Source: Planctomycetota bacterium (GTDB taxonomy: Bacteria > Planctomycetota > UBA11346). Taken from it: DNA of 41,825 bases. Every line of letters begins with the position of its first letter. Positions within the stretch are counted from its first letter, which is position 1. The stretch lies in contig PLEW01000244.1 of NCBI GenBank assembly GCA_003136555.1, positions 34,114 through 75,938 of the forward strand, written 5' to 3'. Below the pieces are notes generated by a model that saw only the letters and a list, made by a program, of their open reading frames with translations, had not been told where the DNA came from and did no database searches. Below, one piece after another: positions 13,649 to 17,637 of the stretch. The position numbers and the translations under genes were made by a program.

Positions 13649-15277
13649 CTAGAGGATCTCGACCAGCTGGAAGCCGGGGTTCTGGCTGAGGCAATAGCGC
13701 TTGTCCCATTCGCTGGGCAGCAGCACCACCGGCTTGCCGCGATGATCCTTGGCCAGCAGGGTGCCATGCGTGGGCTTGAAGGCATCGACGTCGCCGACCA
13801 GCCAGCCGCTGCACTGGTAGGGCAGGTCGCTGAGCTCGGTCTCGACCCCGTACTCGTCGCGCAGGCGGTACTGGAAGACCTCGAATTGCAGACGTCCGAC
13901 GGCGGCAATGAAGGGATCGCCCAGGGGGTTCTCCCAGCTGCGCAGCACCTGCACCGCCCCCTCTGAAGCCAGCTGAGCCATGCCACGGTCGAACGATTTG
14001 CGCTTGGTCAGGTCGAGGGGACGCACGCGGGCGAAGACCTCGGGGGGGAACTGCGGCAGCGGCGCATGCTCGAAGCCGTCCTTCGCCGGCCCCCCCTGGC
14101 TGATGATGGTATCGCCGATGGCGAACCCGGAATTCACCAGGCCCACCACATCTCCGGGGTAGGCGAGATCGAGCGTCGTGCGGTCGCGCGCGACCAGGGT
14201 CTGGGGTCGACTCAGGCGCACCTCGCGGACGAATTCGCCACGATGGTAATGCTTGACCACCAGATCGCGCTCGAAGCGGCCGCTGACGATGCGTACGAAG
14301 GCGAGGCTGTCGCGATGGCGCGGATCCATGTTCGCCTGGATCTTGAAGGCATAGGCGCTGAAGGGCGAGCGGATCGGGTCGATCTCGATGGTCGCACCTG
14401 CCAGGGTGGTCGCCTGCCGGGGTCCCGGCGCGGGGGCGAGGGCGATGAAGGCGTCATAGAAGGGCTCGATGCCGAAGTTCGTCAGCGCCGAGCCGAAGAA
14501 CACCGGGGTCACCTGATTGGCGAGGAAGGCCGCATGGCTGAACGGGTTGCCGGCCACCTCGAGCATCTCGAGGTCGTTGCGCATCCTCGCCGCCAGCACC
14601 TCCCCGAGCTGCGCCGCCGCGCGCGCATCCGCGAGGGGGATGCGCATCATCTCGGCGCGCTGCGCGCCGCCGGCCGCGGTCTTGCGGAAGACCAGCAGGT
14701 CGCGGCTCGCACGATCCACGATCCCGGCGAATTCGCGCCCCATGCCCACCGGCCAATTCATCGCGCTCGCCTGGATGCCGAGCACCTCCTCGACTTCGGT
14801 CATCAGCTCCAGGGGATCGCGGCCCGGTAGATCGCACTTGTTGATGAAGGTCAAGACCGGGATGCCGCGCAGCTTGCAGGCGGTGAACAGCTTGCGCGTC
14901 TGGGTCTCCACGCCCTTGGAGGCATCCAGGACCATGATCGCGCTGTCGGCCGCCGTCAGCGTGCGGTAGGTATCCTCGCTGAAATCCTGGTGGCCAGGGG
15001 TATCGAGCACATTGATGATGTGGCCCTTGTACTCGAATTGCATCGCCGAAGCGGTGATCGAGATGCCGCGCTCCTGCTCCATCGCCATCCAGTCCGAGGT
15101 CGCCATGCGCCCGGTCTTGCGATTCTTGACCATGCCCGCCGTGCGGATCATGCCGGCGTAGAGCAGCAGCTTCTCGGTCAAGGTGGTCTTGCCGGCATCC
15201 GGATGGGCGATGATCGCGAAGGTGCGGCGACGGCTGGTCTCTGCCGGCAGTTCAGGGGCGCTGGGGAGTTCGGACAT
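13649..15277 (-). CDS. prfC: Peptide chain release factor 3
   Basis: RRRTFAIIAHPDAGKTTLTEK, SDWMAMEQERGISI, DTPGHQDFSEDTYRTL, FKIQANMDPRHRD and AVGRLQFEV. Start at ATG 15277. Confidence 0.96.
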   Translation of the reverse strand: MSELPSAPELPAETSRRRTFAIIAHPDAGKTTLTEKLLLYAGMIRTAGMVKNRKTGRMATSDWMAMEQERGISITASAMQFEYKGHIINVLDTPGHQDFSEDTYRTLTAADSAIMVLDASKGVETQTRKLFTACKLRGIPVLTFINKCDLPGRDPLELMTEVEEVLGIQASAMNWPVGMGREFAGIVDRASRDLLVFRKTAAGGAQRAEMMRIPLADARAAAQLGEVLAARMRNDLEMLEVAGNPFSHAAFLANQVTPVFFGSALTNFGIEPFYDAFIALAPAPGPRQATTLAGATIEIDPIRSPFSAYAFKIQANMDPRHRDSLAFVRIVSGRFERDLVVKHYHRGEFVREVRLSRPQTLVARDRTTLDLAYPGDVVGLVNSGFAIGDTIISQGGPAKDGFEHAPLPQFPPEVFARVRPLDLTKRKSFDRGMAQLASEGAVQVLRSWENPLGDPFIAAVGRLQFEVFQYRLRDEYGVETELSDLPYQCSGWLVGDVDAFKPTHGTLLAKDHRGKPVVLLPSEWDKRYCLSQNPGFQLVEIL

Positions 15278-15480
15278 CGATGCACAACCTCGTCGCTGGA
15301 GCCGCGCCCGTGGCCGGTGGGCGAGGGCGCCATAGAGCAGGGGCAACACCATTCACAGCATCGGGCGCGGCGCAACTGGGTTTCCGTGCCCCTGCCACAC
15401 TGCGCCATGCCCGCTCGACGGTGCAGCGCCCGCAGGCCGACAGCGCTCGACCGCCAGGCCCGGGATGATGTGATGCGGCC

Positions 15481-16035
15481 GTGTCCACCCCCAGGTACCA
15501 ACCCTTCTATTGCGAGGAGAACATCTGGCAGCTCTGCCAGGATGCCACGCTGCCCGTCGGCGCCCACCTGGTCGCGGTGATCACCGGATCAGGGCGGCAG
15601 CAGCGCCAGCGCCGTTGCGCCTTATGGCATCAGCGCCTGGCACCCCACCCCGGCGGGGCGCTGCTGTGGGACTACCATGTCGTGCTGCTCGCCGACGCCG
15701 GCCCCTGGCAGGTGTGGGACCTCGACAGCGATCTCGGGGCGCCGGTCGCCGCCGCGGCCTATCTCGCCGCCACCTTCCCCGGCCAGGAGCACCTCGCACC
15801 GATGCTGCGTCCGCAGTTCCGCCTGATCCAGGCCGCCGCATATGTCGCGGCGCTGCGCAGCGACCGCTCGCACATGCGCACGGAATCCGGAGCCTACCGG
15901 CAGCCTCCGCCCTCCTGGCCGCCACCCGGCGGTGGCGGGACGCACAACCTCGATCGTCTGCTCGATCCAACCGACCCCTTCATCGGCGAGGTGGTGGATC
16001 TGCCCTCCTTGCGGATACGTCTCGCCTGCCGCTGA
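15481..16035 (+). CDS. Protein N-terminal glutamine amidohydrolase homologue (NTAQ1/WDYHV1 family)
   Basis: YCEENIW.LC, WDYHVVLL, WDLDS.L, FR.I.A..Y....SDRSHM and PPP motifs are collinear with eukaryotic NTAQ1; triad Cys11/His66/Asp80. Confidence 0.9.
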   Translation: MSTPRYQPFYCEENIWQLCQDATLPVGAHLVAVITGSGRQQRQRRCALWHQRLAPHPGGALLWDYHVVLLADAGPWQVWDLDSDLGAPVAAAAYLAATFPGQEHLAPMLRPQFRLIQAAAYVAALRSDRSHMRTESGAYRQPPPSWPPPGGGGTHNLDRLLDPTDPFIGEVVDLPSLRIRLACR

Positions 16036-16089
16036 CGGCGCAATCCGGGGAGCAAAGCGAAGCGGCCAGGATGGCGAGCAGCACCCTCC

Positions 16090-17637
16090 TCAGCGGGCGA
16101 AATCGCGCATGCCGTTGCGCAGCCGCCGCTGCAGATCGCGGTGGCGGCTGCCCTGGAATCCGCGCGCCAGCCCCGCGGCGCGGGTGAACTGCTCCAGGGC
16201 GGCGGTTCGGTCATCGAGCATGCCCAGCGCCTCGCCCAGACCGCACAGGTTGAACAAGCGCAGGCCATCCCCGTCGATGGCCACCTGGACATGCCCGGCG
16301 CCATCGACCCCGTCGATGTGGGCGAAGCAGGCTTCCGCCTCCCGGTGGAGACCGGCGATCAGGCGCCAATCGCTCCCGGGTATATGGTCGGGGCTGGCGC
16401 AGACCGCCTGCCAGTAGAGGCATTCGGCGCGCTCCTGCACCTCGTCCGCGCGCTGGAAGGCGCTGGCGGCATCGCCATAGGCCGCCGCGATCTGCCCCCA
16501 ATCCCCCGCCATGCGCTCCTGGCCGATCCTCAGCCAGCTGGCCATGTCCTTGATGATGCGCCCATATCCCCGCCAATCGCCCGAGCGCCGACAGAGCTCG
16601 GCGGCACTGCGGTAGGAGCCGCTGAGCACATCGCGCTCCTCGACCTGGATGCCGAACTTCCCCCAGCGCCGGAGATTGGCGAGCAGACCCTGGCAGCGAC
16701 CCTGGCGATCGATGTCGCCGGCCTCGGCGAACAGGGTCTCCGCCTCATCGAGGCAGGTGCGCCACTGCTCCATGCCGGCAGAGGACATGTCCATGCGCAG
16801 CATGCCCAGGTACAGGATGCTGACCCCCTCGGCGGCGATCGAGCCATGCTCGACACTGCGCGCCGCACCGCCGGCGAAAATCGCGCACGCGGCATTCCGC
16901 GCATCCGCATCCATGCACCAGGCGCACTGCGACAGCGCCGCACCGCGACCCTCGATCGCCAGCACATCGTCGGTGCTGAAGAGCGGATCGCTGGCGCAGG
17001 CCGCCAACGCCGTGTCGACCGACTGGTCGGCGCGCTCGCCCTGGACCGGGTCGATGCTGGCGGCAAGGTAGGCGTCCTCGGCCAGGAGCATCGGATGGCG
17101 CAGCGGCCACTGGCGCACGCGGTTCTGCCACTGCGCCCGCAGCGCCGCCGCATGCGGCATTCCAGGGCGGGATTCGCCCTGGCGACGTGCCAAGGCGAGC
17201 TGCGCGAAGATCTGGCCGGCAGTCAGCAGGCCGACCGCCTGGCCATCGCCCTCCCAGGCCGCGACCACCGGCCGGAGGCAATCGACGCGCTGCATGCCAT
17301 TCCACCAGCCCAGATCCACCAGGCGCGCAGCTGCGCTCAGCGAGCCGGCATTGGCGGCGGCGACCAGCCTGATCTGGTGAGCGGTCGGCTCGATGCGCGC
17401 CGGCTCGCGCAGGTCGTCGCGGATGAGCCCCTCGAGGGCGCGACGAACCTGGTCGAGCTGCACACCCTGCGTCAGCGCCGATGCCTCCTTGATCCACCCG
17501 GCCTCATCCGTGAGCTGCCCGGAGGGCGCCGGGGCATCCCCCGGCGAGGAGGGCGGCAATGCCGCTTCCGCGGCCGGCGCTGATGCGCCCAATGCCACGC
17601 CCACAAGCACGAGCAGCCAGGAGGGGAACCGCCTCAC
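16090..17637 (-). CDS. Exported hypothetical protein with C-terminal TPR/SNAP-like helical repeats
   Basis: GTG start, signal peptide MRRFPSWLLVLVGVALGASAPA; repeats such as LDEAETLFAEAGD, YRSAAELCRRSGD and YGDAASAFQRADE. Confidence 0.7.
   Translation of the reverse strand: MRRFPSWLLVLVGVALGASAPAAEAALPPSSPGDAPAPSGQLTDEAGWIKEASALTQGVQLDQVRRALEGLIRDDLREPARIEPTAHQIRLVAAANAGSLSAAARLVDLGWWNGMQRVDCLRPVVAAWEGDGQAVGLLTAGQIFAQLALARRQGESRPGMPHAAALRAQWQNRVRQWPLRHPMLLAEDAYLAASIDPVQGERADQSVDTALAACASDPLFSTDDVLAIEGRGAALSQCAWCMDADARNAACAIFAGGAARSVEHGSIAAEGVSILYLGMLRMDMSSAGMEQWRTCLDEAETLFAEAGDIDRQGRCQGLLANLRRWGKFGIQVEERDVLSGSYRSAAELCRRSGDWRGYGRIIKDMASWLRIGQERMAGDWGQIAAAYGDAASAFQRADEVQERAECLYWQAVCASPDHIPGSDWRLIAGLHREAEACFAHIDGVDGAGHVQVAIDGDGLRLFNLCGLGEALGMLDDRTAALEQFTRAAGLARGFQGSRHRDLQRRLRNGMRDFAR

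What the first reader, a model, noticed from the sequence alone, without database searches (positions are those of the whole stretch)
15481..16035. Bacterial NTAQ1 (Nt-glutamine amidase): a eukaryote-type N-degron entry enzyme
Seen: full-length collinear match to NTAQ1/WDYHV1 signature motifs with an intact Cys11-His66-Asp80 triad. Known: eukaryotic NTAQ1 converts N-terminal Gln to Glu for arginylation by ATE1. The classical bacterial N-degron pathway (Aat, Bpt, ClpS) has no characterised deamidation tier. Inference: this organism may run a tertiary Gln-to-Glu step feeding a Bpt/ATE-like transferase and ClpS-ClpAP, or use the enzyme to prevent pyroglutamate formation. No signal peptide is visible, so a cytoplasmic role is more likely than an effector role. 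The gene is divergent from prfC.
Basis: partly seen in the sequence, partly recalled or inferred. Interest (0 to 1): 0.75.

Follow-up and report, generated by a model that had tools for sequence, protein, structure and literature searches.

The report
Bacterial N-terminal glutamine amidase (NTAQ1) homologue
An uncultured peat planctomycete carries an intact copy of the enzyme that in animals and plants converts an N-terminal glutamine to glutamate to mark proteins for destruction, and across bacteria this gene is found mostly in genomes that also have the enzyme able to use that glutamate, which makes a so far undescribed third tier of bacterial protein-degradation signalling testable.

Summary
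Window 15481-16035 (+) is a 184-aa ORF that matches Pfam Nt_Gln_amidase end to end (138 bits, cut-off 27) and human NTAQ1 (E 1e-23). The AlphaFold model (pLDDT 96) superposes on human NTAQ1 at TM 0.84. The Cys11-His66-Asp80 triad is present. So are the five residues that hold the substrate's free alpha-amino group in human NTAQ1, and all are near-invariant in 251 family proteins. There is no room for a signal peptide.

The genome also encodes Bpt, Aat, two ClpS, ClpP and a ClpA/C-like unfoldase. In a sample of the phylum, 18 of 21 NTAQ1-positive genomes carry Bpt, against 87 of 380 negative ones. Enrichment recurs in Myxococcota, Gammaproteobacteria and Spirochaetota.

No neighbourhood link, no expression evidence and no biochemistry exists. 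Databases already name bacterial members, and this scan noted one before on other DNA (e1-927892). My eight literature searches found no study of them.

Verdict: a real, probably active cytoplasmic Nt-Gln amidase. A role upstream of Bpt-ClpS is the best-supported reading but is unproven.

The parts
15481..16035 (+). ntaq1-like gene: 184-aa protein N-terminal glutamine amidohydrolase homologue (GTG start, TGA stop)
   Evidence: ORF list and sequence. Pfam PF09764 at 138 bits. Human NTAQ1 at E 1.3e-23. AF2 pLDDT 96, TM 0.84 to 8jju/4w79.
15511..15516 (+). Codons for Cys11 (catalytic nucleophile, equivalent to human C28) and Glu12 (equivalent to human E29, part of the alpha-amino water network)
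   Evidence: Alignment. Residue roles from PMC4214742 and PMC11168063. C present in 250/251 and E in 250/251 family proteins.
15670..15678 (+). Codons for Asp64-Tyr65-His66 (human D79-Y80-H81): substrate alpha-amino and backbone contacts, plus the catalytic His
   Evidence: D in 251/251, Y in 243/251 (plus 8 F), H in 251/251.
15718..15720 (+). Codon for Asp80 (human D97), third member of the triad
   Evidence: D in 251/251.
15871..15876 (+). Codons for His131-Met132 (human H148-M149), which contact the substrate alpha-amino group
   Evidence: H in 250/251, M in 250/251.
15353..15480 (.). Divergent intergenic region shared with prfC; presumed promoter region, no element identified
   Evidence: No sigma-70-like promoter and no terminator-like site found in 15150-16250. 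The prfC ORF ends here at 15352 at the latest.

Best explanation
The gene encodes a soluble cytoplasmic cysteine amidohydrolase of the NTAQ1 family. Using Cys11-His66-Asp80, it hydrolyses the side-chain amide of a glutamine at the free N-terminus of a protein or peptide, giving N-terminal glutamate plus ammonia.

The fold, the triad and the five residues that in human NTAQ1 hold the substrate's free alpha-amino group (here E12, D64, Y65, H131, M132) are shown by computation. The activity itself is inferred from them.

[quoted passage not shown] In that scheme the genome's Bpt transferase adds Leu to the new N-terminal Glu, ClpS binds the Leu, and a Clp unfoldase-ClpP protease degrades the protein. 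This second part is inferred only from gene co-occurrence and from the known specificity of Bpt.

Substrates would be fragments made by internal cleavage, because methionine aminopeptidase is not expected to expose Gln (my own knowledge, not tested here).
For: Enzyme identity:
- Pfam 138 bits over the full length.
- Only NTAQ1 chains are hit in PDB (15 of 15).
- AF2 model pLDDT 96, pTM 0.92.
- The Foldseek matches at E <= 0.001 shown in the list are all human NTAQ1 entries (the tool counted 17; ranks 1-17), TM 0.83-0.85, rmsd 2.3-2.5 A. The next fold is protein-glutaminase at TM 0.37.

Active site and N-terminus recognition:
- The human residues E29, D79, H148, Y80 and M149 contact the alpha-amino group (PMC11168063, passages read).
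- Their counterparts, and the triad, are conserved in 243-251 of 251 family proteins. C11, E12, D64, H66, D80, H131 and M132 are invariant in the 122-row alignment.

Downstream parts in the same genome:
- Bpt with ATE_N and ATE_C, over the NCBIfam NF002346 cut-off (190.7 vs 170).
- Aat over the TIGR00667 cut-off.
- Two ClpS and ClpP.
- Bpt is reported to add Leu to N-terminal Asp/Glu (PMC9351520; bioRxiv 2021.07.26.453911; passages read).

Co-occurrence of NTAQ1 with Bpt (ATE_C):
- Planctomycetota sample: 18 of 21 NTAQ1-positive genomes have ATE_C, against 87 of 380 NTAQ1-negative ones.
- By GTDB family, 6 of 8 NTAQ1-positive families hold a genome with both, while 26 of 103 families have ATE_C (hypergeometric P = 0.003).
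- Elsewhere, 39 of 50 NTAQ1-positive genomes have ATE_C.
- By record title or tree position: Myxococcota 8 of 15 against 18 of 100 background; Gammaproteobacteria 14 of 16 against 49 of 100; Spirochaetota 4 of 4 against 28 of 80.

The gene is inherited within the organism's family: the window protein sits in a clade of 15 rows, the 10 rows with a group code being GTDB family f1 and the other 5 (four of them same-genus) titled Planctomycetota (SH-aLRT 94).
Against: No gene for Bpt, Aat or ClpS lies within about 6 kb of the NTAQ1 gene in any of 76 loci, and no neighbour is conserved across lineages.

ATE_C was not found in 3 of 21 NTAQ1-positive Planctomycetota (G101 and G148 at 86-87% complete, G355 at 93%), nor in 11 of 50 other carriers, including 7 of 15 Myxococcota. 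The enzyme therefore cannot depend strictly on Bpt.

Within the organism's own family, Bpt is nearly universal (20 of 23) whether or not NTAQ1 is present (7 of 23), so the association lies between families, not within them.

The Fisher tests ignore shared ancestry, and carriers tend to be large free-living genomes.

The best Hsp100 is below the ClpA equivalog cut-off (791 vs 993 bits), so the unfoldase partner of ClpS is not identified.

No NTAN1 homologue was found (genome 86% complete), so only Gln, not Asn, would be covered.

The position of human E158 is Gln here and varies across the family.

No transcript evidence was found for the gene.
Confidence: 0.45

Rival explanations
1. It is a true N-terminal glutamine amidase, but its purpose is not Bpt/ClpS-dependent degradation. 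It might keep N-terminal Gln from cyclising to pyroglutamate, which would block the N-terminus. Or it might create an N-terminal Glu read by other lineage-specific partners.
For: The same active-site evidence applies.

A sizeable minority of carriers show no Bpt: 3 of 21 and 11 of 50.

Tightly linked same-strand upstream genes differ by lineage:
- A stand-alone Lon substrate-binding domain in Lentisphaeria, 20-bp gap. Pfam was run on L022 only; L028 and L029 have an upstream ORF of the same size and spacing.
- FHA-domain proteins in L068 and L082.
- DUF1003 in L058 and L070 (L065 inferred from like size and overlap).
- Alpha/beta hydrolases in Nannocystaceae and in L059/L063.

This suggests several different downstream users.
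Against: It does not explain the enrichment of Bpt among carriers in four separate taxon samples. No pyroglutamate-related gene was examined. In this window the gene has no same-strand neighbour at all.
Confidence: 0.3
2. It acts on free short peptides or small glutamine amides rather than on proteins, for example to release ammonia or glutamate from Gln-peptides as a nutritional or salvage function.
For: Human NTAQ1 recognises mainly the first residues and the backbone of its substrate (PMC4214742 and PMC11168063), so peptides would fit. Some carriers have peptidase-like neighbours: an S41 peptidase upstream in L084, and S33-like alpha/beta hydrolases in several Myxococcota.
Against: There is no transporter or catabolic operon around the gene in this window and no conserved metabolic neighbour across 76 loci. 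The co-occurrence with Bpt is not predicted by this reading.
Confidence: 0.12
3. It is a secreted or injected deamidase aimed at another organism's proteins, like known bacterial effector deamidases of the papain-like or transglutaminase superfamily.
For: The fold class is shared with bacterial effector-type and secreted deamidases. PMC4214742 lists SseI and protein-glutaminase as structural neighbours.
Against: The catalytic Cys is residue 11, so there is no signal peptide. Homologues start 3-25 residues before the same motif in most loci. No secretion genes are adjacent. The organism is a free-living peat planctomycete. The structural match to protein-glutaminase is weak (TM 0.37).
Confidence: 0.03
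4. It is a decaying relic of a gene transfer, with no function.
For: The sequence evolves quickly: 52-58% identity to same-genus copies (62% over 175 columns), against 65-70% for Bpt. Distribution is patchy: 21 of 401 genomes in the phylum sample.
Against: The frame is open at full length with no stops in any of the 21 phylum hits. All catalytic and substrate-binding residues are kept. GC content (0.71) is close to the flanks (0.66-0.73). The gene is inherited along the family.
Confidence: 0.02

Closest known systems
Human/mouse NTAQ1 (WDYHV1, C8orf32; protein N-terminal glutamine amidohydrolase; PDB 4W79, 3C9Q, 6KGJ, 8JJ*-8JK*)
   Same: Same Pfam family, collinear over the full length at 31-33% identity. 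Same fold (TM 0.84). Same Cys-His-Asp triad, and the same E, D, Y, H and M residues that hold the substrate alpha-amino group. Single-domain protein of about 180-205 aa.
   Different: The host is a bacterium without ubiquitin, ATE1-type arginylation or UBR ligases. The only candidate user of the product is the Leu-transferase Bpt with ClpS. The position of human E158, proposed to attract a positive second residue, is Gln here and variable in the family. It lacks the first ~17 residues of the human protein. No activity has been measured.
Bacterial Leu/N-degron pathway (ClpS-ClpAP with Aat, and Bpt as in Vibrio vulnificus)
   Same: The genome has Aat, Bpt, two ClpS and ClpP. Bpt is reported to accept N-terminal Asp/Glu, which is the product expected of this enzyme.
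   Different: The passages I read of the papers on this pathway name primary and secondary destabilising residues in bacteria, and none of them describes a deamidation tier. This enzyme would add one. The ClpA partner is not identified here.
Yeast Nta1 and mammalian NTAN1 (other N-terminal amidases)
   Same: The same logical step: turning a tertiary destabilising residue into a secondary one.
   Different: These are unrelated families. Yeast Nta1 deamidates both N-terminal Asn and Gln and belongs to the nitrilase-type fold (my own knowledge); NTAN1 is PF14736. No NTAN1 homologue was found in this genome. Nta1-like genes were not searched.
Protein-glutaminase of Chryseobacterium proteolyticum (PDB 2KSV/3A54)
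   Same: A Cys-His-Asp deamidase of glutamine side chains, and the nearest non-NTAQ1 fold.
   Different: It is secreted and is not specific for the N-terminal residue. The structural match is only TM 0.37 at 15% identity. It is not the same family.

Membership tests
NTAQ1 / Pfam PF09764 Nt_Gln_amidase | Sequence match to the family model above the curated cut-off, over the full length | tested here: met
   138 bits against a cut-off of 27; model positions 1-177 of 184. 137.4 bits on the genome scan.
NTAQ1 / Pfam PF09764 Nt_Gln_amidase | NTAQ1 fold (three-layer alpha-beta-alpha sandwich) | tested here: met
   AF2 pLDDT 96. TM 0.83-0.85 and rmsd 2.3-2.5 A to the human NTAQ1 entries that fill ranks 1-17 of the Foldseek list; the next fold is at TM 0.37.
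NTAQ1 / Pfam PF09764 Nt_Gln_amidase | Cys-His-Asp catalytic triad (human C28, H81, D97) | tested here: met
   C11, H66 and D80 align to them. They are present in 250, 251 and 251 of 251 family proteins. The geometry in the model was not measured.
NTAQ1 / Pfam PF09764 Nt_Gln_amidase | Residues that recognise the free alpha-amino group of the substrate (human E29, D79, H148, Y80, M149) | tested here: met
   E12, D64, H131, Y65 and M132. They are kept in 243-251 of 251 proteins.
NTAQ1 / Pfam PF09764 Nt_Gln_amidase | Deamidates N-terminal Gln, but not internal Gln or N-terminal Asn | not testable with these tools
   Needs an enzyme assay with a C11A control.
Hierarchical N-degron pathway (tertiary, then secondary, then primary residues) | A transferase that accepts N-terminal Glu is encoded in the same genome | tested here: met
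   Bpt has ATE_N and ATE_C and scores over the NF002346 cut-off. Its amino-acid specificity was not tested.
Hierarchical N-degron pathway (tertiary, then secondary, then primary residues) | An N-recognin and its protease are encoded in the same genome | tested here: inconclusive
   Two ClpS and ClpP are present. The best Hsp100 (853 aa) is below both the ClpA and ClpB equivalog cut-offs.
Hierarchical N-degron pathway (tertiary, then secondary, then primary residues) | The amidase and the transferase are functionally coupled (co-inherited, adjacent or binding) | tested here: inconclusive
   Co-occurrence is enriched: 18/21 vs 87/380, and 39/50 elsewhere. There is no adjacency in 76 loci, and 14 carriers lack a detectable Bpt.

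The most novel reading that the evidence does not exclude
Some bacteria run a three-tier N-degron pathway: N-terminal Gln is converted to Glu by NTAQ1, extended to Leu-Glu by Bpt, then bound by ClpS and degraded by a Clp protease. The hierarchical design thought typical of eukaryotes would then already exist in bacteria. The eukaryotic NTAQ1 may also descend from this broad bacterial family rather than the reverse.
Probability: 0.4. Interest if true: 0.75.

Novelty: new member of a known kind. Interest (0 to 1): 0.55.

Why it matters
The passages I read of reviews and primary papers on bacterial N-degron pathways list primary and secondary destabilising residues only. A working bacterial Nt-Gln amidase upstream of Bpt would add the missing tertiary tier. 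It would also show that the layered logic of the eukaryotic Arg/N-degron pathway has a bacterial counterpart, and it would bear on where the eukaryotic enzyme came from.

The question is directly testable. The protein is small and soluble. The gene also occurs in cultured strains: records titled Enhygromyxa salina, Halochromatium glycolicum, Halochromatium roseum, Lamprobacter modestohalophilus and Leucothrix pacifica. E. coli gave no match to either PF09764 or ATE_C in the control scans, so it can serve as a clean host for reconstitution.

Tried and rejected
**Complex prediction, NTAQ1 with Bpt** (collected). Result: no verdict (score 0.01, mark 0.32). It is not used either way.

**Expression**. 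19 peat DNA runs hold the stretch. Of 3 RNA runs laid, one gave a single 172-nt contig at 16099-16270, inside the downstream ORF and not the NTAQ1 gene. There is therefore no transcript evidence, and no evidence of silence.

**Eukaryotic sequences for a joint tree.** None of these returned a protein with a eukaryotic name:
- the top 120 of 206 hits;
- the top 150 of 1639;
- the top 120 of 569 with a more human-like bacterial query;
- 10 cluster look-ups.

The bacteria-versus-eukaryote phylogeny was therefore not done.

**Fusions.** Long ORFs in GC-rich loci (L025, L030, L035, L038, L039, L072, L076) are Arg/Pro/Gly-rich read-through upstream of an internal start, not real domains. Real-looking but sporadic fusions are listed under Noticed in passing.

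**Conserved neighbours.** Only generic histidine kinases and Ser/Thr kinases recur across phyla. These were rejected as meaningless.

**Promoter and terminator scan of 15150-16250.** Nothing found.

**Compositional sign of recent transfer.** None found.

**NCBIfam.** No model matches the protein.

**Literature.** Searches found no paper on a bacterial NTAQ1. Wang et al. 2009 (PMC2749074) is not held, so what it says about distribution could not be checked. Supplements were not opened.

**ESM Atlas**. It only confirmed bacterial clusters already named after the family.

Full report
**1. The observation**

Window 15481-16035 (+) is an open frame of 184 codons. It begins with GTG, the first start codon after an in-frame TGA at 15466-15468.

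- It matches Pfam PF09764 (Nt_Gln_amidase) at E 3.4e-40 and 138 bits against a cut-off of 27, covering model positions 1-177 of 184.
- No NCBIfam model matches it.
- phmmer against all PDB chains returns 15 distinct sequences, all human NTAQ1, best E 1.3e-23.
- In that alignment C11, H66 and D80 pair with human C28, H81 and D97. These are the catalytic triad described in PMC4214742 (passages read).
- prfC lies on the opposite strand at 13649-15352, with GTP_EFTU, EF-G_D2 and RF3_C domains.

**2. Structure and active site**

An AlphaFold2 model was built on a 122-row alignment. It has mean pLDDT 96 and pTM 0.92. In Foldseek against PDB the matches at E <= 0.001 (the tool counted 17) fill ranks 1-17 of the list and are all human NTAQ1 entries, with TM 0.83-0.85 on the query, rmsd 2.3-2.5 A and 31-33% identity. 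The next fold, protein-glutaminase, reaches only TM 0.37.

PMC11168063 (passages read) reports how human NTAQ1 recognises the free alpha-amino group of its substrate. It uses water networks held by E29, D79 and H148, plus Y80 and M149. The window protein has E12, D64, H131, Y65 and M132 at those positions.

I aligned the window protein with 250 family proteins of 150-260 aa, taken from the 258 proteins then held. Conservation was as follows:

| Window residue | Present in (of 251) |
|---|---|
| C11 | 250 |
| E12 | 250 |
| D64 | 251 |
| Y65 | 243 (plus 8 F) |
| H66 | 251 |
| D80 | 251 |
| H131 | 250 |
| M132 | 250 |

The position of human E158 is Gln here and varies across the family.

The catalytic Cys is residue 11 and opens the first helix. 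There is therefore no signal peptide. Most homologues start only a few residues before the same YCEEN motif.

The apparatus that makes NTAQ1 specific for an N-terminal glutamine is thus intact and under selection. The activity itself remains inferred.

**3. Organism and distribution**

The window lies in a 5.9-Mb assembly that is 86% complete. Four same-genus loci are identical to public records titled "Planctomycetota bacterium". Earlier notes on the genome also call it an uncultured bog planctomycete, and the DNA is held by 19 peat metagenome runs.

PF09764 was found as follows:

- 15 of 61 close relatives, including the window's own genome; without it, 7 of 10 same-genus genomes and 13 of 36 same-family genomes.
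- 21 of 401 genomes, and 12 of 287 genera, of a phylum sample, always as an open frame.

A scan of one genome per species returned 68 loci. Their record titles span Planctomycetota, Myxococcota, Lentisphaeria, Gammaproteobacteria, Spirochaetes, Bacteroidota, Acidobacteriota, Melainabacteria and others, and include cultured strains.

An exhaustive profile-free search found 1639 clusters at 50% identity with E <= 1e-3, and 980 with E <= 1e-10. The split between bacteria and eukaryotes among them is unknown.

Sources already label some bacterial members "protein N-terminal glutamine amidohydrolase".

I built a quick maximum-likelihood tree of 80 rows, dropping 12 duplicate, partial or frameshifted rows. 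It places the window protein in a clade of 15 rows with SH-aLRT 94. The 10 rows that carry a group code are all family f1; the other 5 are public records titled Planctomycetota, four of which coincide with same-genus handles. Planctomycete copies from other families fall next to Bacteroidota, Gammaproteobacteria or Spirochaetota.

The picture is vertical descent within families and transfer between phyla. GC content (0.71) does not differ much from the flanks.

**4. Is there a pathway for the product?**

The same genome encodes:

- Bpt, with ATE_N and ATE_C, at 190.7 bits against the NF002346 cut-off of 170.
- Aat, over the TIGR00667 cut-off.
- Two ClpS.
- ClpP.
- An 853-aa Hsp100 that stays below the ClpA and ClpB equivalog cut-offs.

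No NTAN1 homologue was found.

Bpt is reported to add Leu to N-terminal Asp or Glu, giving a ClpS ligand (PMC9351520; bioRxiv 2021.07.26.453911; passages read).

*Co-occurrence in the phylum sample.* 18 of 21 NTAQ1-positive genomes have ATE_C, against 87 of 380 NTAQ1-negative ones. The three exceptions are G101, G148 and G355, at 87, 86 and 93% completeness.

Relatives are not independent, so I also counted GTDB families. 26 of 103 families have ATE_C. Of the 8 families with NTAQ1, 6 contain a genome with both (hypergeometric P = 0.003).

*Co-occurrence outside that sample.* I tested 50 carriers. ATE_C was found in 39 of the 50.

I grouped them by record title or, for four vaguely titled MAGs, by tree position:

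| Group | Carriers with ATE_C | Background (centre genome removed) | Call for background |
|---|---|---|---|
| Myxococcota | 8 of 15 | 18 of 100 | 54 |
| Gammaproteobacteria | 14 of 16 | 49 of 100 | 55 (includes unpublished genome G606) |
| Spirochaetota | 4 of 4 | 28 of 80 | 56 |

Two pairs of near-identical NTAQ1 genes (L044/L045 and L023/L026) each split into one genome with ATE_C and one without. This suggests that some misses are due to incomplete bins.

**5. Evidence against a simple coupling**

- In none of 76 loci does a Bpt, Aat or ClpS homologue lie within about 6 kb.
- No neighbour is conserved across phyla.
- Inside the organism's own family, Bpt is almost universal (20 of 23) while NTAQ1 is not (7 of 23). 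The association therefore lies between lineages.
- Fourteen carriers show no Bpt.
- The gene stands alone in this window, between divergent prfC and a convergent ORF of unknown function.
- Tightly linked upstream genes in other lineages are diverse: a Lon substrate-binding domain, FHA proteins, DUF1003, alpha/beta hydrolases and an S41 peptidase. This hints that the N-terminal Glu, or the enzyme, may be used differently in different bacteria.

**6. Conclusion**

I am about 80% confident that this is an active cytoplasmic N-terminal glutamine amidase.

That it feeds Bpt-ClpS-Clp degradation is the best-supported role, at about 45%. It rests on the presence of every downstream part and on repeated, though not phylogenetically corrected, co-occurrence.

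A degradation-independent role for N-terminal deamidation comes next, at about 30%. Peptide salvage, an effector role and gene decay are less likely.

**7. Novelty**

The family and its reaction are known, and databases already name bacterial members. This scan had also seen one before on other DNA.

Eight literature searches found no paper that studies or discusses a bacterial NTAQ1. The papers I read on bacterial N-degron pathways name only primary and secondary residues. Wang et al. 2009 is not held, and supplements were not opened, so an earlier remark on bacterial homologues may exist.

I file it as a new member of a known kind. [quoted passage not shown]

Noticed in passing
L022:5318-5965 (+); likewise L028:2711-3346 and L029:5330-5965: In Lentisphaeria MAGs the NTAQ1 gene follows, on the same strand and after a 20-bp gap, an ORF of about 211-215 aa. 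In L022 this is a stand-alone Lon substrate-binding domain protein (PF02190, E 1e-31). Pfam was run on L022 only. This is a possible proteolysis-linked partner in that lineage.
   Followed up: partly
L068:5372-5977 (+) and L082:5330-5977 (+): FHA-domain proteins lie directly upstream (gaps of 8 and 5 bp) of NTAQ1 in two Myxococcota-type MAGs.
   Followed up: partly
L025:5132-5995, L041:5120-5986, L035:4892-6004, L076:5150-6004; L059:1192-2046, L063:5198-5980: Alpha/beta-hydrolase genes (Abhydrolase_1, with weaker S33 aminopeptidase-type hits) overlap or abut the start of NTAQ1 in Nannocystaceae-like genomes and in a second myxobacterial lineage. The two hydrolase groups are only distantly related to each other.
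   Followed up: partly
L058:2820-3443, L065:348-989, L070:1747-2520: ORFs overlap the NTAQ1 start by 10 bp in Kofleriaceae-type MAGs. Pfam shows DUF1003 for L058 and L070; L065 was not scanned.
   Followed up: no
Proteins P0157, P0168, P0201, P0181, P0182: Sporadic fused forms occur: low-molecular-weight phosphotyrosine phosphatase + NTAQ1 (two clusters), NTAQ1 + PrmA-like methyltransferase, UDP-glucose pyrophosphorylase + NTAQ1, and DUF309 + NTAQ1. Their organisms are unknown, and some may be gene-calling run-ons.
   Followed up: partly
window 16090-17637 (-): A 515-aa ORF convergent with NTAQ1. It has a signal-peptide-like start and no Pfam family, and its only homologue among the loci is in the nearest same-genus genome at 31% identity. 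A 172-nt metatranscriptome contig lies at 16099-16270.
   Followed up: partly
L023 and L026: Nearly identical NTAQ1 genes (tree branches 0.03 and 0.01) occur in MAGs titled Oligoflexales and Melainabacteria. This is either a labelling or binning conflict or a very recent transfer. This protein scores 129 bits against human NTAQ1, the highest of the four bacterial proteins tested.
   Followed up: no
G000:C210:4595-5043 (-): A second ClpP-like gene in the window's genome is split into two matches with an in-frame TAG.
   Followed up: no
L002:1471-2148 (-): NCBIfam names the bacterial Bpt family 'arginyltransferase' (NF002346). The papers read describe the characterised bacterial Bpt as a leucyl-transferase. 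Automated names for this gene may mislead.
   Followed up: no
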